Shown piece after piece: positions 39,239 through 46,727 of a stretch of 62,762 bases of DNA. A model generated the notes under the pieces. That model did no database searches and had not been told where the DNA came from. It saw only the letters and a list, made by a program, of their open reading frames with translations. The position numbers were made by a program, and so were the translations under genes. Every line of letters begins with the position of its first letter. Position 1 is the first letter of the stretch. This DNA comes from Candidatus Humimicrobiaceae bacterium (GTDB lineage Bacteria; Patescibacteriota; Minisyncoccia; Minisyncoccales; DG-74-1), in NCBI GenBank assembly GCA_035530555.1, contig DATKUR010000010.1:1-62762 (forward strand), written 5' to 3'.

Positions 39239-40284
39239 AAGAAAAAATAGCAATTATTTCAATATTAGCGAATATGGTTCTGGCGGGAGGAAAAATCATT
39301 GTTGGTGTTTTTTCTGGTTCTTCCGCTATTTTGGCTGAAGGCATCCATTCTTTTATGGATATTTTTTCTTCAGCTATCGGATACATCGGGATTAAAATAT
39401 CTAAAAAACCTAGCGATCAAAAACATCCCTACGGCCATTATAAATTTGAGGTTCTGGCTGGTTTTTTTATAACATTAATCCTGCTCGGAACAGGCGTAGG
39501 AATTATTTATGAGGCATATCAGAAATTTTTAAACCCTTCTTCTATAAAAATACCGGTTTTAGCCTTTAGTGTAATGATTTTTTCAGCGTTGATTAACGAA
39601 ATAATGGCGCGTCTGAAAATCCATTTTGGTAAAAAGGAAAATTCAATGGCTTTGCTTTCAGATGGTTTTCATTCAAGGGTTGATGTTTTTACTTCTTTAG
39701 CAGTTTTTGCCGGCTTGTTTTTAACAAGGTACTGGATTTATACTGACTCAGTTTTAGCTTTTTTAATTGGTCTTTATATTGTTAAACAATCTTTTGCATT
39801 AGGTAAAGAAGCAGTTGATTCTTTGCTTGATGTTTCTGCCGGAGAAAAAATTGAGGAAAAAATAAGAACAATTTCCAAAAAAGAAAACATTGAAATCTCC
39901 TCTTTAAAAACCCAGAAAAAAGGATCAGCCGTTACCGCCAATTTAGAAATAAAACTTCCAAATAATTTAAAAGTGGAAGAAGCAACTAAAATTTCAAATA
40001 ATTTAAGAGAAAAACTTATGAAGGAGATAGAAAGCCTTCAGTATGTTGCCATTCAGATCACCAGCCATGAAGTGGAAACAGGATTTTATAAGCCCTCTTT
40101 CGGACAAGGATTCGGCTGGCAGAGGAGAGGCAGATTCAAAGGGGAGCTTGAGAAAGCTGCTGGAGAAGGACCGGGCGGATATTGTGTTTGTCCTGAATGT
40201 GACTATAAGATTCCTCATGAACGCGGTGTTCCTTGCTCGACTCTTGAGTGTCCAAATTGTAAAATTAAATTAATTAGAAAATAA
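39235..40284 (+). CDS. Cation diffusion facilitator with C-terminal Cys-rich domain
   Basis: HSFMD, HPYGH, HSRVD; tail GPGGYCVCPEC...C...CPNC. Confidence 0.9.
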   Translation: MKEKIAIISILANMVLAGGKIIVGVFSGSSAILAEGIHSFMDIFSSAIGYIGIKISKKPSDQKHPYGHYKFEVLAGFFITLILLGTGVGIIYEAYQKFLNPSSIKIPVLAFSVMIFSALINEIMARLKIHFGKKENSMALLSDGFHSRVDVFTSLAVFAGLFLTRYWIYTDSVLAFLIGLYIVKQSFALGKEAVDSLLDVSAGEKIEEKIRTISKKENIEISSLKTQKKGSAVTANLEIKLPNNLKVEEATKISNNLREKLMKEIESLQYVAIQITSHEVETGFYKPSFGQGFGWQRRGRFKGELEKAAGEGPGGYCVCPECDYKIPHERGVPCSTLECPNCKIKLIRK

Positions 40285-40285
40285 T

Positions 40286-40561
40286 ATGGTAAGACCATTA
40301 AAACCAAGAAAAGTATTATTTGATCCAAATGTGATATATTTCAAACCAAGAGCAGTTCCTCTTTCTATGTTAGAAGAAGTAGATTTGGGTATAGACGAGC
40401 TGGAAGCTTTACGCCTTTGCGATTATAAAAATTTGGAACAAACCGAAGCCGCAAAGAAGATGAAGATTTCCCAGAGTACCTTTCAGCGAATTTTAACCTC
40501 AGCCCATAAAAAAGTTGCTGAATCTCTAATTGAAGGTAAAGCGATAAAAATAATTAAATAG
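40286..40561 (+). CDS. DUF134-family putative DNA-binding protein
   Basis: MVRP.KPR, FKP, ELEALRL.D...Q.EAA..M.IS..TF.RIL..A. Confidence 0.9.
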   Translation: MVRPLKPRKVLFDPNVIYFKPRAVPLSMLEEVDLGIDELEALRLCDYKNLEQTEAAKKMKISQSTFQRILTSAHKKVAESLIEGKAIKIIK

Positions 40562-40575
40562 TTCTCATATAAATC

Positions 40576-40615
40576 AAAACAAAAAAGAACGATTCGCGTC
40601 GCTCTTTTTTGTTTT
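40576..40615. terminator. Bidirectional terminator-like IR at the metal cluster / island junction
   Basis: AAAACAAAAAAGA-A-CGA...TCG-C-TCTTTTTTGTTTT between convergent genes. Confidence 0.65.
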
Positions 40616-40616
40616 T

Positions 40617-41978
40617 CTATTCCTCGATTAAAGTAATTTTCTTGTCTTTATAATTCAGCCGGCTTCGCAAGTTTGCCAGCAGTTCGCGCTTGTCCGATAC
40701 ACTGCCTTCTTTTAATAAGTACTTGGCATATTGCCGGATATTTACATCGTCTTCCTCAACAAGCGCGTTGCCCGATTTTCCATTAACGATTTTCTGCAGT
40801 TTATTAAATCTTCTGATCTCATCCTCAAGTTTCTGCCTCATGCCTAATTCATTGATATTAACCTTGTCCATAATTTTTAAAAGTTCATCGATCAGTTCTT
40901 CTTCGCGAATGTATTTGTTTTTGCAGTTCCGATCCCTTGCCCGACTACAGCCGTAATAGATGTAATGCGCAGAAGTGCCGTCTTTAAGCGGTTTCCATTT
41001 TTCTTCGGCTGATATACCGGATCCGCAGTAACCGCAGGTAAATAATTTTGTAAAAGCAAATTCTTTATTTTCTCTGACTATTTGATCGCGTTTCAGTTGT
41101 GCTTGGGCTTTTTCAAACAATTCCTGCGTAATCAACGGCTGATGTTTACCTTGATACCAATTACCGCTTTCTCTTGGATATTCGAATGGCCCATAATAAA
41201 ACGTGTTATCAAGTATGCGGTAAACCCCCGAAAGCGTGAGCGGCTTATTTCCTCGTGTATGAAAATTAAGCTCAAACTTGAGCCAGTTATAAATTTTTCT
41301 GCCCGAATAATGTTCATAAGCCACTTTCTCAAACATTTTCTTTACCATTGGAGACCGTGCGGGATCAACCATAATCTGGCATTTCTTATCCATCAGTTTC
41401 TGATTAAGATACCCGAGCGGTGCTACTCCCGGCCATAATCCCATTTCGACTCTTGTCCGCAGTCCGCGTTTGACGTTAATACCCCTATTGTCGTTTTCAA
41501 GTTTTGCCTGCGATCCGAGAATCATTAAAAGGAATTTTTCATTCGGATTATTGCTGAATCTTTGACCGTAGGTGCGGATTTCCAAAAGCAGCTTTGCATC
41601 CATTAAATCCACTATCTTGCCGAGATCCCCGGCATTCCTTGAAATACGATCCGGTGCCCAGGTCAGAATGCCGTTAAACTTTCCCTGTTTTATTTCTTCG
41701 ACTATTTCATTGAAGATCGGTCGCTGGCCGGTTTCTTTTGCCGAGTGCGATTCGCGCTTGATCTCGGCGATATCAAGACCCTCTCGCTCAGCGAGCTGCA
41801 TCATCTCTTTGACCTGAGAATCAATGGAGAGGATTTGCCGTTCTTCACTTTCGGTCGATTTCCTTGCGTAGAGGCAGTATTTGATTTTGGTCGGCTGTAT
41901 TTGAGCAGTCTGCCCCTTGATACTCCCCAAGCCAGCCGTAAATGTTGTATTATTCATACAACACAATGGATGACGCAA
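40617..41978 (-). CDS. Large serine recombinase (start may be 41957)
   Basis: YARKST catalytic Ser, DRISR, APLGY recombinase domain, CGYC...C...C zinc ribbon. Confidence 0.93.
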   Translation of the reverse strand: MRHPLCCMNNTTFTAGLGSIKGQTAQIQPTKIKYCLYARKSTESEERQILSIDSQVKEMMQLAEREGLDIAEIKRESHSAKETGQRPIFNEIVEEIKQGKFNGILTWAPDRISRNAGDLGKIVDLMDAKLLLEIRTYGQRFSNNPNEKFLLMILGSQAKLENDNRGINVKRGLRTRVEMGLWPGVAPLGYLNQKLMDKKCQIMVDPARSPMVKKMFEKVAYEHYSGRKIYNWLKFELNFHTRGNKPLTLSGVYRILDNTFYYGPFEYPRESGNWYQGKHQPLITQELFEKAQAQLKRDQIVRENKEFAFTKLFTCGYCGSGISAEEKWKPLKDGTSAHYIYYGCSRARDRNCKNKYIREEELIDELLKIMDKVNINELGMRQKLEDEIRRFNKLQKIVNGKSGNALVEEDDVNIRQYAKYLLKEGSVSDKRELLANLRSRLNYKDKKITLIEE

Positions 41979-42045
41979 TCCTCAAAAGGAGTCCAGAGCG
42001 TCCCAGTTGGCAGACAGTTGATAACTTATTTCCGCAAAAACGCCA

Positions 42046-43365
42046 TCACATTATCGGGTTATCGTAGGGATCGAAGAAAATCTCTTTTTCTGGTGCCGCA
42101 TTGTCGTAAAAGCCGTAATCATTATCCATTTTATTCTCAACAAGAGCCGCATAGCGATGGACATCAGCGGCGTGCGAAGTCCAATTGTGATACGGAATCT
42201 CTCTGAACATATTTCTCTTATCATCCCACTCACGTTTGTATTCTGAAATTGCGTCAACCCACAGCGCGCATTTTTCTTTGTCTATCATTAGTCTGTCAAA
42301 CATAAATTTACCTATTTGAATTCCATCATCCACATTGGTTTTCGGATCAATAACACTGAATGGTAATCCAAGGTTTTTGGCAAAATCTATTCTTGCCTTT
42401 CCGGTGCTTGCTTCCCGAGCGTTTATATCGTGCGGCGCAAAGTGAGTTCCGTAGTTATACTCTTTTCGTCTTACAGCAGAAACCGCTTGATCGATTCCGT
42501 CATTTTCTGTTCCCTGCCAATAATCGATCATGTGTATTCTCGCCCCGATACGCTGATAAAATCCGATAGCCATCGCCGGTCCGACTCCAATATCCCAAAC
42601 CGTATGCACTTTGCACTCACGTTGCCACGGAACAGCGGTTATCCGGTTATCACTTCTTGCCCTTGCCAGTTCTTGCGCGTAAACCGCACCCTTTGCCGAA
42701 GAATTAAATGAACAGTAAAGTTCCTGCATAAATTCCTCTTGAGACATCGTTTTTCTCGAATTTTCTATTTCTTTCGGATCAATTACCCCGGTGTCATCCA
42801 CTGTCAGGTGGCAGGTAAACCATTCGCTGTCATTTTTATGTATTTCGTACAGAAAATAGAATTCGTTTCTGCCTTTTGGTGTTCCGATCCAGATTCCGTA
42901 TCCGCCATTTTCCAGAAGCGTCGGGCGGATTACTTCGGTAAAGATATTATTCGGTTGCATGCCGTATTCATCAAACACGACACCGCTTAACCCTATACCT
43001 CTCAGCCGATCCGGGTTTTCTGCGCCAAACAGTGTTATTTTTGACCCACCCGGAAAATTTACCGACAGTTCGGATTCTTTACATATCACACCTGGAAATT
43101 TCGTGTATCTTTTTAGTATGCCCCAGGCAACGCTTTTGGCCATTTTGTAGGTTGGGGCAATATATGCATACTTTGTGCCGGGTTTTTTAACCGCGTCGTA
43201 TACCAGATAATTCAACGCCGCAGTTGTTTTTCCGGCACGGCGATGCACCACAAGCACCATCCAGCGCTTGTCAGTTTCGTGAAATGGGATAGCCCATTTT
43301 CGCGGACTGTATAAACTTGGAAATTTGTCCATAATTTTAATTTTTCTGATTATGATTGAATTCAA
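42046..43365 (-). CDS. Phage terminase large subunit (start may be 43332)
   Basis: Walker A HRRAGKT, APT, Walker B VVFDE, IGTP coupling motif, nuclease WDIG and HAAD..RY. Confidence 0.9.
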   Translation of the reverse strand: MNSIIIRKIKIMDKFPSLYSPRKWAIPFHETDKRWMVLVVHRRAGKTTAALNYLVYDAVKKPGTKYAYIAPTYKMAKSVAWGILKRYTKFPGVICKESELSVNFPGGSKITLFGAENPDRLRGIGLSGVVFDEYGMQPNNIFTEVIRPTLLENGGYGIWIGTPKGRNEFYFLYEIHKNDSEWFTCHLTVDDTGVIDPKEIENSRKTMSQEEFMQELYCSFNSSAKGAVYAQELARARSDNRITAVPWQRECKVHTVWDIGVGPAMAIGFYQRIGARIHMIDYWQGTENDGIDQAVSAVRRKEYNYGTHFAPHDINAREASTGKARIDFAKNLGLPFSVIDPKTNVDDGIQIGKFMFDRLMIDKEKCALWVDAISEYKREWDDKRNMFREIPYHNWTSHAADVHRYAALVENKMDNDYGFYDNAAPEKEIFFDPYDNPIM

Positions 43366-43705
43366 CGTCTATAGGCGTAGTGATTTCAATCTTTGTTTTA
43401 TTGTATTTAGGGTGACGTTTTTCAAGCCGGTAATGAATTGCCGGCCAGAATTTTTCTTTTACCAATGATAACAGCTGATGTTCGCTCATATCATTGAAGA
43501 ATTCATCACCTTCGGCCATGGCTTCTTCGACCGCTTTGGCGAATCCCGGATCCTCGCTTCTCCAGCGGTAATAAGTGGCCTTTCCTATGCCTGCTTTTTC
43601 GCAGGCCAACAGCTGAATCGGATATTTCTTCAACTGTTCAAGCAAAATTTCTTTTTCTTTTGCCTGCCGTATTTTAATTGTTTTACGTTTTTTAGCGTTA
43701 TTCAT
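43337..43705 (-). CDS. HTH protein, putative terminase small subunit
   Basis: ACEKAGIGKATYYRW...DPGF HTH, AI.Y.L; directly upstream of TerL. Confidence 0.72.
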   Translation of the reverse strand: MNNAKKRKTIKIRQAKEKEILLEQLKKYPIQLLACEKAGIGKATYYRWRSEDPGFAKAVEEAMAEGDEFFNDMSEHQLLSLVKEKFWPAIHYRLEKRHPKYNKTKIEITTPIDVEFNHNQKN

Positions 43706-45020
43706 AAATTTTCTTTGGCTTTATGCCAGTTAATTTTATCCAGCGGTGAATTATCACCTCTGTGTATACTGGCGATTTCTCTATGACATAACAGCGTCGC
43801 TTCATTTTCTCGGCCGCAATCAAAGTACTTCCCGATCCGCCAAACGGTTCGACAATCAAGTCGCCGCGTTTGGTGAGTACCTTGATGTAGGGAATAAGAA
43901 TCTCGATCGGCTTTGTGCCGAACACAACTCCCTGTCCAGAATTTTTCTCGTCACCCGCTTTATATTCGATGAAATCAGTCGGACAGATTCTTTTGCCTTT
44001 TTCGTAGCCTTCCCATTGCGGCCTACCTGCAATGGCATACAGGGCAGTTTCGTATTCGCTCTGAAGTTCTTCTGCTTCCGGTTCAAGATTGAGCCGCATT
44101 TTCTTTGAGGTTCCGACCATGGCAATGTCGTGCTTCGAAAAGAATCTGTATTTTGCGGCAAATCCCTGCGTGCGATTAGGAAGATGCCAGACCAGCATGT
44201 TTTTTATCTTCCAGTATTTCTCAAGCTCGCCCCAAATAGTTCTAATATTCTTCCAATTTTCGTAAACAATAATATGGAAGTCCGGTTTGGCAATCTTTGC
44301 GATATTTGCCATCCACTTTTCGGTAAAGTCTGGCGGAAGAACATCGGTGCCAAGATATTTTCTGTTGCGCTTGAATCCGAATCCTGATCCCTTGCCCTTA
44401 TATTTGGTATGCAAATAATCCAAAATATATGGAGGGTCGGTAAAGCACATATCAGCTTTTTTGCCATTCATAAGCTTTACAATATTTGTCTGAATAGTTG
44501 AATCGCCGCACATGAGGCGATGTGTTCCCAGCTGATATACGTCGCCGTTTTTAACTGTGATGTTCTTGATATCCAGTTTTGCCAGTTCTTTCTCCAAATC
44601 AAATTCATCCGGTAGATCTTCAACCGCGAATATGTCATCCAGTTCTTCCGAAGAGAAACCGATATCTGCCAGAAACGATTCTTTGAAGTTTGTTAGTAAA
44701 TCCCAGTCAAACTCGCCGGTATTCTTATTGAGCCTCAGATTCAATTCCTTCTCCTTTTCAATATCGGGGATATTGAGATACACGACCGGTATCTCAGTAA
44801 TTCCGATTTCTTTGGCAATCGACAGACGGAAATGTCCGCCGATCACAACTCCTCTGCGTTCCGGTGAAAAATTTGCAATAATTGGATCAACAAAGCCGTA
44901 TTTTTTGATGCTGGCCTTAAGATGTTTTATTGCTTCTTTGTTCCACTTGCGCGGGTTGTATTCCGATGGACGAAGCTGATTTATCGGAACATAAACGATT
45001 TTTAAATTATTATTTGTCAT
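43698..45020 (-). CDS. ParB-like domain fused to N4/N6 DNA methyltransferase
   Basis: YNPRK, GFVDPI, GGHFRL; HRLMCGDST, TDPPY, EPFGGSGST. Confidence 0.9.
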   Translation of the reverse strand: MTNNNLKIVYVPINQLRPSEYNPRKWNKEAIKHLKASIKKYGFVDPIIANFSPERRGVVIGGHFRLSIAKEIGITEIPVVYLNIPDIEKEKELNLRLNKNTGEFDWDLLTNFKESFLADIGFSSEELDDIFAVEDLPDEFDLEKELAKLDIKNITVKNGDVYQLGTHRLMCGDSTIQTNIVKLMNGKKADMCFTDPPYILDYLHTKYKGKGSGFGFKRNRKYLGTDVLPPDFTEKWMANIAKIAKPDFHIIVYENWKNIRTIWGELEKYWKIKNMLVWHLPNRTQGFAAKYRFFSKHDIAMVGTSKKMRLNLEPEAEELQSEYETALYAIAGRPQWEGYEKGKRICPTDFIEYKAGDEKNSGQGVVFGTKPIEILIPYIKVLTKRGDLIVEPFGGSGSTLIAAEKMKRRCYVIEKSPVYTEVIIHRWIKLTGIKPKKIYE

Positions 45021-45059
45021 AACTATTTTCGGCGATTGTGTTAATTCTTAATTTTGTCT

Positions 45060-45305
45060 GCGTTGATTGATATCGACCACGGCATAAGGAGCCGCATCAA
45101 TCGGTAGAACAAAAAACAGGGAACGCAATGCGTTCCCCGGTGGTTTAAAATGAAAAAGTCCGAAAATCAAATTACCAAGAAAGCATTGCGGTGTTAAATG
45201 CAATGTTTGGCAATTTCATTTCCGGATTCTTTGCTGGCAATTTATATCCAGGTATAAATCCTGAAACCCTTAAAGTTAAGGCTTACCCTGTTTTTAATGT
45301 TCTGA
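45060..45305 (-). ncRNA. Structured 5' leader with terminator/antiterminator potential (candidate)
   Basis: Terminator GGGAACGC-ATT-GCGTTCCC-TGTTTTTT; long hairpin 45159-45226; 5' end complementary to the terminator 3' arm; TTGACA and TGnTATAAT just upstream (45313-45338). Confidence 0.55.
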
Positions 45306-45440
45306 CAATTGCATTATAGCATAGTTAAAGCATGTCAACAAGCCCTGTTGGTAACTCGCTTTACAATTCTGGTGGTTGAGCTAGGGTACAGTGGACGAAA
45401 GTGTCAAAAAGAAGTAAAATTTAAATATAATTTAATATCA

Positions 45441-45594
45441 GTCACCTAAACTTGCCATTTCGGCAGGCATGGTGCAAAAAACCCGTCAAAGGTACTAAGC
45501 TCGTCGTCAGAGCACCTTTGACGGGTCATATCCCGAAAGGGGTATGGGTAGCCGAAAGGCTATCGCTGGCGGCGAGCTTTGTGTTTTCCGCCAG
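45441..45594 (+). ncRNA. Five-hairpin structured RNA with 14-bp alternative pairing (candidate)
   Basis: 13-bp perfect stem, two GAAA-tetraloop stems, G-U pairs on the + strand, loop 45497-45510 complementary to 45566-45579. Confidence 0.65.
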
Positions 45595-45608: not shown

Positions 45609-45839
45609 ATGTATCTGAATATGGCGGAAAAAATTAAAGACTGGCTTAATAATAATTGGTTTAAAGCTATCAGTGCCATCGTTTTATTAACGATTGGCTT
45701 TTCTATTTTTTATTATTTCTTTTTGAGGCCGTATCAAAACGACAGACCCTACCGAGAATGTATAAAACAGATTGATCCTCGCGCCGATTTTAAAGATGTT
45801 AAATCTCTTTATTTTAATTGCCTCAATAGTTTTAGATAG
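45609..45839 (+). CDS. Small single-TM hypothetical protein
   Basis: One hydrophobic helix, two C-terminal Cys. Confidence 0.6.
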   Translation: MYLNMAEKIKDWLNNNWFKAISAIVLLTIGFSIFYYFFLRPYQNDRPYRECIKQIDPRADFKDVKSLYFNCLNSFR

Positions 45840-45845
45840 AAATGT

Positions 45846-46532
45846 ATGGCAAATAATCATTCAAAAATAAATCAAAAAGGTTTCATTCAAATACCAGTAC
45901 TTATAGCAATAATTACAGGACTTTTAATTGTCGGCGGAGTCGGCTATTTTGGCATAAAACAACATCAAAATAATCAAAATAAAAACAATAACGAAGAGAA
46001 ACAGCAAGAACTACAGGGCGATGTTGTTATGCCTGAAGGACCAACAGAAATTTCCGGAGAAGGATTTTACAGTATAACCTTGGAAACTAGCCCAAGCATA
46101 CAAAGAAGAGAAGCAACGTTCAGAATTAAATTAAAGAATTTGAATGTAGAACCATTTATTACAAATTTGGGAACGGACAGCTGTAATATTACTGATTCAA
46201 AAGGACAAAAATATCTCGCGGCTTTCACAAGCGAAATTAAGCTTAAAAAGGCATTGCTTCCCGGGGAAGAAATAGCGATTGATATCGCCAGACAAAGGCT
46301 GGGAACTTCTTTTATTCAAGAAGGAGAAATAGCCTGTGCAAAGGAAGGCGTTTATCCAAATGATTTAATCGATGGTAATTTTAAATGTATTTATAACAGT
46401 TCGGGGGAATGTGTTTGTGAAGATTTGGGAGATTTAAAAATTAATGATTGTATTTTCCGTATAACGACAGACGGCAAAATAGCATCTAATAACTGGGGTA
46501 AATATCCGCTGACGGTAACTATAGAAAAGTAA
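45846..46532 (+). CDS. Hypothetical protein with prepilin-like N-terminus
   Basis: QKG|FIQIPVLIAII class III-like signal; six Cys in the soluble domain. Confidence 0.65.
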   Translation: MANNHSKINQKGFIQIPVLIAIITGLLIVGGVGYFGIKQHQNNQNKNNNEEKQQELQGDVVMPEGPTEISGEGFYSITLETSPSIQRREATFRIKLKNLNVEPFITNLGTDSCNITDSKGQKYLAAFTSEIKLKKALLPGEEIAIDIARQRLGTSFIQEGEIACAKEGVYPNDLIDGNFKCIYNSSGECVCEDLGDLKINDCIFRITTDGKIASNNWGKYPLTVTIEK

Positions 46533-46555: not shown

Positions 46556-46581
46556 AAAAGCGCAGTATAAGTTGCGCTTTT
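46556..46581 (+). terminator. Intrinsic terminator
   Basis: AAAAGCGCAG-TATAAG-TTGCGCTTTT. Confidence 0.65.
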
Positions 46582-46727
46582 CTCTTACTTTTTTAATTAA
46601 TTGTGCTTTACACTATTATTAACCTATGCGGACAGGAAATAAAATAAAGAAATTTGTATCTTGACATCCCTATAATATTTTGATACTTATATAAGTAGTG
46701 ATATAATTTACACTAAATATTAAAAAT

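What the first reader, a model, noticed from the sequence alone, without database searches (positions are those of the whole stretch)
45441..45594. Unrecognised five-hairpin RNA with a 14-bp loop-to-stem switch or pseudoknot
Seen: H1 45443-45474. H2 is a 13-bp perfect stem (ACCCGTCAAAGGT/ACCTTTGACGGGT) with loop AAGCTCGTCGTCAG. H3 is CATATCCC-GAAA-GGGGTATG and H4 is GGTAGCC-GAAA-GGCTATC. H5 is CTGGCGG/CCGCCAG. The H2 loop is fully complementary (12 Watson-Crick + 2 G-U) to CTGGCGGCGAGCTT at 45566-45579, which would open H5, 14 nt before a small membrane protein gene. A TATAAT lies at 45426. I cannot match it to a known family. Inference: a regulatory RNA (translation switch, toxin leader or immunity RNA) transcribed divergently from the terminase leader.
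Basis: partly seen in the sequence, partly recalled or inferred. Interest (0 to 1): 0.78.

Follow-up and report, generated by a model that had tools for sequence, protein, structure and literature searches.

The report
LOOT RNA leader with unmodelled switch

Summary
The 14-bp pairing is real. It lies 3' of the Rfam model and covaries family-wide (12 of 16 pairs compensatory in a 34-copy subset, 0 of 500 shuffles; cognate partner in the top 5 for 71 of 91 copies). H5 is optional (36 of 87). Homologues add a GAAA loop with a receptor-like motif, a U-rich run after the helix, a sense gene just downstream (79 of 91), and in about 19 of 88 copies a repeat of the H2 arm at the start codon; this copy lacks that repeat. 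Here LOOT heads cargo genes of a recombinase-terminase island. Best reading (0.55): a cis-acting two-state leader, likely stopping transcription at the U-run unless H5 captures the partner strand. No expression data; trigger unknown. The scan already reported LOOT, this helix and the start-codon repeat on other genomes. My paper searches found no function in print, but the original paper's supplement was unreadable.

The parts
45392..45420 (+). Likely promoter (-35 at 45392-45397, -10 at 45415-45420); inferred start near 45427
   Evidence: 9 of 12 match; promoter-like sites are not above chance in this region, 5 found vs 7.9 expected; 28 of 44 hexamer/leader-motif pairs in homologues are spaced 6-7 nt, as here
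45443..45564 (+). LOOT RNA, Rfam RF03000, full-length match
   Evidence: 94.3 bits, cut-off 46.4, E 8.6e-17; single copy in the genome
45443..45474 (+).
   Evidence: compared with receptor variants quoted in 10.1101/2024.03.11.584472; docking is inferred
45481..45526 (+). P2 (H2): 13-bp stem, arms a (45481-45493) and a' (45514-45526), 20-nt loop
45497..45510 (+). b: loop segment that pairs with b'
45527..45546 (+). P3 (H3) capped by GAAA, the near-invariant tetraloop
   Evidence: GAAA in 85 of 87 copies
45547..45564 (+). P4 (H4) capped by a variable, mostly GNRA loop
   Evidence: GCAA 40, GAAA 30, others 17 of 87
45566..45582 (+). b': partner of b (14-bp core 45566-45579 plus 2-bp extension); outside the Rfam model
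   Evidence: 12 of 16 pairs with compensatory change, 90.9% of cells paired, slid controls 36-54%
45578..45587 (+). U-rich run (6 of first 8 bases) directly behind the G+C core of b'; candidate termination site
   Evidence: 6 U in 62 and 7 U in 14 of 89 copies scored
45588..45594 (+). c: 3' arm of H5, competes with b for b'; optional in the family
   Evidence: duplex at or below -9 kcal/mol in 36 of 87; better than 95% of own shuffles in 30 of 87
45609..45839 (+). 76-aa ORF with one predicted membrane helix (second in-frame ATG at 45621); first gene behind the leader
   Evidence: no Pfam family; no relative among the fetched loci
45846..46532 (+). 228-aa ORF with an N-terminal hydrophobic stretch; likely second gene of the same transcript
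   Evidence: no Pfam family
40617..45020 (-). Divergent mobile module: ParB-DNA methyltransferase, 122-aa HTH protein (likely small terminase), large terminase, large serine recombinase
   Evidence: same four genes in the same order divergent from a LOOT in viral-collection contig L093

Best explanation
This is a LOOT RNA lying directly in front of a mobile island's cargo genes, and it likely acts in cis as a two-state leader in which pairing of the P2 loop with b' would stop RNA polymerase at the U-run, whereas H5 would capture b' in transcripts that read through. Shown by sequence comparison: family membership, covariation of b:b', position 5' of a sense gene, optional H5, and in about one copy in five a repeat (a'') of the P2 5' arm at the start codon. 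Inferred: P1-P4 fold first, with the P3 GAAA loop docked in the P1 receptor; b' then seeds on the exposed tip of the P2 loop, opens the inner hairpin and forms 14-17 bp just as the U-run is in the polymerase, releasing a ~160-nt RNA (OFF). In read-through RNA, c pairs with b' and leaves P2 intact (ON). In copies with a'', the a' strand has a second partner that covers the translation start, giving a second OFF state; this copy lacks that arm. What tips the balance is not shown; I would bet on folding kinetics or an element- or phage-encoded factor rather than a metabolite.
For: b:b' covariation (12 of 16 pairs, 59 compensatory cells vs 21 shuffled, 0 of 500; mean -24.7 kcal/mol, cognate in top 5 for 71 of 91). 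A sense ORF of 45 aa or more starts 25-130 nt behind LOOT in 79 of 91, against 31 of 91 for the mirror test on the 5' side; here only 21 nt separate U-run and ATG, leaving little room for a second promoter. Mutually exclusive partners: H5 in 36 of 87; inner loop hairpin in 85 of 87; a'' best-of-88 in 16 of 88 against 1 expected, and 18 of the 22 top-ranked duplexes end within 5 nt of a start codon, with 16 different arm sequences among 19 hand-picked cases. Predicted energies are balanced in this copy: P2 domain -26.5 plus H5 -16.2 against open-loop P2 -19.9 plus b:b' -24.3 before pseudoknot penalties. U-rich tail in 76 of 89.
Against: No transcript ends, probing or reporter data. The tail is usually only 6 U of 8 and is interrupted by a G that covaries with the loop (columns 93/186), so the U-richness may reflect pairing with the A-rich loop rather than termination. 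The two arms of the proposed terminator helix are 55 nt apart, unlike ordinary terminators. 12 of 91 copies have no nearby sense ORF by my rule. H5 is missing in 51 of 87 and a'' in about four of five copies, so many copies have no obvious ON-state lock. The conserved tetraloop/receptor pair suggests a stable compact fold rather than a simple attenuator. Relatedness inflates the covariation statistics, and the 34 aligned sequences were chosen by me as similar to this copy.
Confidence: 0.55

Rival explanations
1. The released short LOOT RNA acts in trans as a self-recognition or immunity RNA, pairing through a'/b' or b with nascent leaders of a like element, as CI RNA of phage P4 does with seqA and seqC.
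For: Layout of complementary sites upstream (a, b) and downstream (c, a'') of an a'-P3-P4-b' core; the order c then a'' fits antiparallel pairing with that core. The a arm is the most variable segment even between otherwise close copies (identity 0.58 where P3-P4 averages 0.88; 40 pairs). Association with recombinase or ParB-methyltransferase genes in 19 of 92 loci within 1.5 kb. P4 CI mechanism from passages of PMC4825925.
Against: One genome (G070) carries six copies, four with nearly the same b sequence, so like copies coexist. In the short RNA b and b' can pair with each other, hiding both. No second target for a or b of this copy longer than 11 nt in its genome. Downstream genes are cargo, not replication or antirepressor genes.
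Confidence: 0.17
2. LOOT is an independent, stably folded non-coding RNA (as Rfam types it, 'sRNA'); b:b' is a constitutive pseudoknot that compacts it or protects its 3' end, and downstream genes merely share the promoter.
For: GAAA in 85 of 87 P3 loops with a receptor-like P1 motif in nearly all; b:b' is near universal while H5 and a'' are optional; pairing runs into the U-rich tail; downstream genes share no function.
Against: Does not explain a'' at start codons with three-way covariation, H5, or the inner loop hairpin that b:b' must open. A median 17 bp inside a median 23-nt loop is more than one helical turn and is hard to form with P2 closed (geometric inference).
Confidence: 0.15
3. 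LOOT is a ligand-sensing riboswitch; P1-P4 with the pseudoknot form an aptamer and H5 or a'' the expression platform.
For: 5' leader position, pseudoknot, alternative helices, wide spread across a phylum.
Against: The invariant bases mostly belong to the tetraloop/receptor motif; downstream genes have no common pathway (50 of 79 without Pfam hit, the rest methyltransferases, nucleases, surface proteins).
Confidence: 0.08
4. The P2 arms and a'' are DNA-level sites (operator, recombination or insertion sites), and the RNA fold is secondary.
For: P2 has only 16 G-U among 975 pairs, against 177 of 1216 in P3+P4 and 291 of 1510 in b:b'; a'' is identical to a at 195 of 219 positions.
Against: GNRA loops, receptor motif and G-U-rich b:b' are strand-specific RNA features; the 6 a/a'' differences that keep pairing with a' include the ones inside the helix, and the 18 that break it lie at or near its ends (cases were picked by pairing energy, so this is weak).
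Confidence: 0.05

Closest known systems
LOOT RNA motif, Rfam RF03000 (shown as a metagenomic-based RNA from the Weinberg alignment collection in PMC7779021; structure refined by two pairs in PMC11701678)
   Same: Full-length match, same four nested helices, score twice the cut-off.
   Different: The Rfam model ends at P4 and types the RNA as sRNA; it lacks b:b', the U-run, H5 and a''. Here the evidence favours a 5' leader.
CI RNA with seqA/seqC of phage P4, and IsrK of Gifsy-1 (PMC4825925, passages read); C4 antisense RNA of phage P1 (recalled, no paper read)
   Same: Leader of a mobile element with an internal module complementary to sites upstream and downstream; premature termination.
   Different: No sequence match (no C4 or IsrK family hit); downstream genes are variable cargo, not replication or antirepressor genes; no evidence of processing or action in trans.
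Intrinsic terminator/attenuator leaders and pseudoknot riboswitches such as fluoride and ZTP (recalled)
   Same: G+C-rich helix followed by a U-rich run in a 5' leader; a pseudoknot competing with a local hairpin.
   Different: Here the long-range, pseudoknot-forming helix is the one that abuts the U-run; no ligand and no common downstream function.
GAAA tetraloop / 11-nt receptor motif (10.1101/2024.03.11.584472, passages read)
   Same: P1 carries CCUAA-plus-one / YAUGG halves, three copies with the canonical receptor; P3 loop fixed as GAAA.
   Different: Most copies, this one included, have an A-C or C-U in place of the closing G-U; docking untested.

Membership tests
LOOT (RF03000) | Covariance-model score at or above the gathering cut-off | tested here: met
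   94.3 vs 46.4 bits, E 8.6e-17
LOOT (RF03000) | Full-length match with the P1-P4 nested structure | tested here: met
   model 1-121 of 121, not truncated; same helices in the minimum-energy fold
LOOT (RF03000) | Expressed as an RNA | not testable with these tools
   needs RNA-seq of this organism
Intrinsic terminator | G+C-rich hairpin with a short loop | tested here: not met
   the b:b' arms are 55 nt apart with P2', P3 and P4 between; the local scan finds only a 5-pair site at 45563-45575
Intrinsic terminator | U-tract directly behind the helix | tested here: inconclusive
   6 of 8 U here; 6-7 U in 76 of 89 copies, usually interrupted by G
Riboswitch | Position in a 5' leader with alternative folds | tested here: met
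   79 of 91 with sense gene; H5, inner hairpin, a''; computational only
Riboswitch | Downstream genes share a pathway pointing to a ligand | tested here: not met
   50 of 79 no Pfam hit; 29 spread over unrelated families
Riboswitch | Ligand binding | not testable with these tools
   needs probing
C4 / CI phage antisense RNAs | Match to the Rfam families | tested here: not met
   only LOOT and tRNAs are listed at gathering score in the window
C4 / CI phage antisense RNAs | Antisense module with complementary sites both upstream and downstream | tested here: inconclusive
   b' has partners b and c here; a' has a second partner only in about 19 of 88 homologues, not in this copy
C4 / CI phage antisense RNAs | Processed small RNA acting in trans | not testable with these tools
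   needs transcript ends and a trans assay
Type I toxin-antitoxin leader | Conserved small hydrophobic toxin downstream | tested here: not met
   downstream ORFs are unrelated, 48-485 aa; the 76-aa ORF has no relative among fetched loci and no Pfam hit
Type I toxin-antitoxin leader | Antisense antitoxin transcript | not tested
   no dedicated search for an opposite-strand transcript
Known self-cleaving ribozyme classes | Rfam match | tested here: not met
   no such family listed at gathering score

The most novel reading that the evidence does not exclude
LOOT is a protein-free, re-addressable strand-exchange switch of mobile islands in ultra-small bacteria: a long-range pseudoknot helix serves as the terminator, the released RNA ends with its 3' tail wound through the P2 loop, and the freely varying a and b sequences act as an address code by which the RNA times or silences cargo genes (including restriction-modification fusions) of matching elements in cis and in trans.
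Probability: 0.17. Interest if true: 0.72.

Novelty: new member of a known kind. Interest (0 to 1): 0.38.

Why it matters
As a locus it is one ordinary copy of a catalogued RNA found in roughly one in five sampled genomes of this phylum. At family level it matters more: LOOT has no function in the papers I could search, and the catalogued model stops just before its best-covarying long-range helix. Adding b', the U-run, H5 and the start-codon repeat turns an orphan 'sRNA' into a leader with a concrete mechanism that a 170-nt in vitro transcription and probing experiment can test. If a pseudoknot helix with arms 55 nt apart terminates transcription, that would be an unusual natural terminator design and a rare view of gene control in bacteria that are hard to culture.

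Tried and rejected
Expression: no RNA holder listed among 24 runs; four DNA runs laid as contigs reproduce the window (run X1, possibly its source, no differences in its long pieces) and show short pieces of other LOOT copies, but say nothing on transcription. Island ends: no repeat of 15 bp or more between 40101-40700 and the right part of the window; the same-genus genome G001 has other sequence behind the DUF134 gene and no LOOT match, so the island is accessory but its ends are undefined. Trans targets: exact matches to a or b elsewhere in the genome are 11 nt at most and look like chance (no formal null). a'' in this copy: absent (duplex -4.5 kcal/mol, rank 79 of 87). H5 and a'' co-occurrence: not significant (10 of 19 vs 26 of 68, p 0.30). 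Viral collection: one subfamily pattern gave 45 hits, of which 4 are LOOT (two near-identical), so this is no census. Rows dropped: L007 (below cut-off, atypical) from all counts; L006, L055 (P2 mis-parsed) and L051 (3' part broken); also L085 structure counts. Further copies listed without a locus were not fetched. Literature: the supplement of PMC5737381 could not be read and may describe LOOT's context or a 3' helix; its main text does not name LOOT RNA. Rejected: new family, conserved toxin leader, known ribozyme class, TATAAT at 45426 as the most likely -10.

Full report
Observation. The region folds far better than shuffles (z -9.19, 0 of 200). The H2 loop is 20 nt, not 14, and contains a small inner hairpin. 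Names used below: a and a' are the P2 (H2) arms, b the loop segment, b' its partner at 45566-45579, c the 3' arm of H5.

Identity. Rfam gives a full-length LOOT match at 45443-45564 (RF03000, 94.3 bits, cut-off 46.4, E 8.6e-17). It is the only copy in the 643-kb genome. LOOT was found in 7 of 61 relatives, 26 of 151 genomes of the order, 29 of 151 of the class and 30 of 151 of the phylum (overlapping samples that include this genome), and in 0 of 14 control genomes. The three genomes of the same family had no match. Genome sizes of 0.3-1.3 Mb across the phylum suggest Patescibacteria (CPR); no call names the organism, and that label is my inference, shared by earlier scan notes.

What the catalogued model lacks. 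The model ends at P4, so b', the U-run and H5 are outside it. I took 92 loci, dropped one atypical weak match and analysed 91. The loop pairs with its own downstream segment at a mean of -24.7 kcal/mol; the cognate partner ranks first in 30 and in the top five in 71 of 91, although close relatives share b. Clear failures are L006 (mis-parsed) and L051 (broken). On a structure-blind alignment of 34 copies that I chose for similarity to this one, 12 of 16 pairs show compensatory change, 90.9% of cells pair, 0 of 500 shuffles reach this, and slid registers give 36-54%. Relatedness inflates these numbers, but entirely different b sequences in other subfamilies keep their own partners. The helix has a median of 17 pairs in a median 23-nt loop (87 copies), more than one turn, so complete pairing with P2 closed would need strain or threading of a free 3' end (geometric inference).

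Competing partners. An inner hairpin in the P2 loop is predicted in 85 of 87. H5 reaches -9 kcal/mol in 36 of 87 and beats 95% of its own shuffles in 30 of 87, so it is selected but optional. A copy of arm a (a'') lies downstream in a subset: best-ranked in 16 of 88 against 1 expected, and 18 of the 22 top-ranked duplexes end within 5 nt of a start codon. Among 19 hand-picked cases there are 16 different arm sequences. In 17 of these folded to the start codon, a' pairs with a'' in 5 minimum-energy folds and in 16 when a is blocked. Four of five methyltransferase genes behind LOOT have a'', against 13 of 74 other genes (p 0.007, kin not independent). This copy has H5 but no a''.

Tertiary motif. 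The P3 loop is GAAA in 85 of 87 while the P4 loop varies, and P1 carries receptor-like halves, canonical in three copies (receptor sequences from passages of 10.1101/2024.03.11.584472). An earlier scan note mentioned a receptor; I tested it by these counts. Docking is inferred.

Leader position. A -10-like hexamer sits 6-7 nt before a conserved A/T-rich leader motif in 28 of 44 such pairs. A sense ORF begins 25-130 nt behind LOOT in 79 of 91, against 31 of 91 in the mirror test; 56 of the 79 have a hydrophobic helix near the N-terminus. Pfam names 29 of 79: five DNA methyltransferases, four staphylococcal-type nucleases, four DUF4352, three DUF4145 and scattered others. No common pathway appears.

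Genomic setting. Divergent from LOOT run a ParB-methyltransferase, a 122-aa HTH protein, a large terminase and a large serine recombinase; behind it lie two membrane-protein ORFs, then a methyltransferase and a UvrD-like helicase among unnamed ORFs. Contig L093 repeats the four-gene module and a divergent LOOT with different cargo. Within 1.5 kb, 11 of 92 loci have a related recombinase and 8 of 92 the ParB-methyltransferase (lower bounds). The same-genus genome lacks the module at this site.

Mechanism. For this copy, P2 with its inner hairpin plus H5 sums to -42.7 kcal/mol, and open-loop P2 plus b:b' to -44.2 before pseudoknot penalties; in a transcript cut at the U-run the P2 fold (-68.5) and the b:b' fold with P2 open (-66.3) are close, while in the long transcript the H5 fold wins (-86.9 against -70.7 for the nested alternative). 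b' is followed by 6-7 U in 8 nt in 76 of 89 copies. I therefore favour a cis-acting leader in which b:b' would halt transcription and H5 would lock the read-through form, with a'' as an added translation block in some copies (0.55). Against it: the U-run is weak and its G covaries with the loop, the helix arms are far apart, many copies have neither H5 nor a'', and nothing is measured. Rivals are a trans-acting immunity RNA like P4 CI (0.17; passage of PMC4825925), a constitutive compact RNA (0.15), a riboswitch (0.08) and DNA-level sites (0.05). Unexplained: P2 is almost free of G-U pairs (16 of 975) and is the fastest-changing segment.

What is in print. Searches for 'LOOT RNA', 'RF03000', LOOT with RNA motif/OD1, LOOT with Rfam/Patescibacteria, and LOOT with ROOL/GOLLD found only passing mentions: a figure legend in PMC7779021, a table row in PMC11701678 and a remark on cross-covariation in 10.1101/2020.02.04.933952; I read passages only. 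PMC5737381, cited by the Rfam paper as a source of such families, does not name LOOT RNA in its main text (passages) and its supplement was unreadable, so a prior description of the 3' helix cannot be excluded. Earlier scan notes on other genomes report LOOT, the extra helix and the start-codon repeat; I had reached these points before reading them, and they are not independent support.

Verdict. Observation confirmed; novelty claim refuted; switch idea supported by comparative evidence only. New member of a known family, interest 0.38.

Noticed in passing
window 45025-45240, - strand: The leader of the divergent ParB-methyltransferase operon holds a long predicted stem and a terminator-like hairpin with U-run (45139-45117); the region is about 71% conserved in L041 and L093, with changes that appear to keep the hairpin. 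No Rfam match. Possibly a second attenuator of the island.
   Followed up: partly
L096:5794-7071, L082:1944-3017, L136:8087-9187: Reverse transcriptase genes lie upstream of LOOT in three unrelated loci, directly and on the same strand in L096 and L082. Probably cargo, but a link to the RNA was not tested.
   Followed up: no
L003, L028, L037 (first ORF behind LOOT): A metallophosphoesterase ORF (L003) begins with nearly the same first dozen residues as methyltransferase-Mrr fusions (L028, L037), suggesting cargo genes are swapped just inside the reading frame while leader and start site are kept.
   Followed up: no
L007 (G056:C6:39583-39700): Below-cut-off match with a LOOT-like P1 and long P2 but a different 3' half; may be a diverged relative.
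   Followed up: no
L017, L029, L033, L034 (genome G070): Four of six copies in one genome share a near-identical b and an extra helix enclosing the RNA (5' and 3' flanks complementary), three or four with the same DUF4145 gene, yet have different P2 stems.
   Followed up: partly
window 46556-46581 and 46680-46707: A two-way terminator-like hairpin closes the LOOT-led unit after the 228-aa ORF, and a strong promoter-like site (11 of 12) precedes a likely defence-type cluster of a 76-aa ORF, an 859-aa ORF, a methyltransferase and a helicase.
   Followed up: no
window 9356-55742: 18 tRNA matches in this 63-kb contig, many in clusters.
   Followed up: no
L136:702-1877: A LOOT copy lies about 4 kb from an SU10-type major capsid gene on a 53-kb viral-collection contig, so the RNA also occurs in phage-like DNA.
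   Followed up: no
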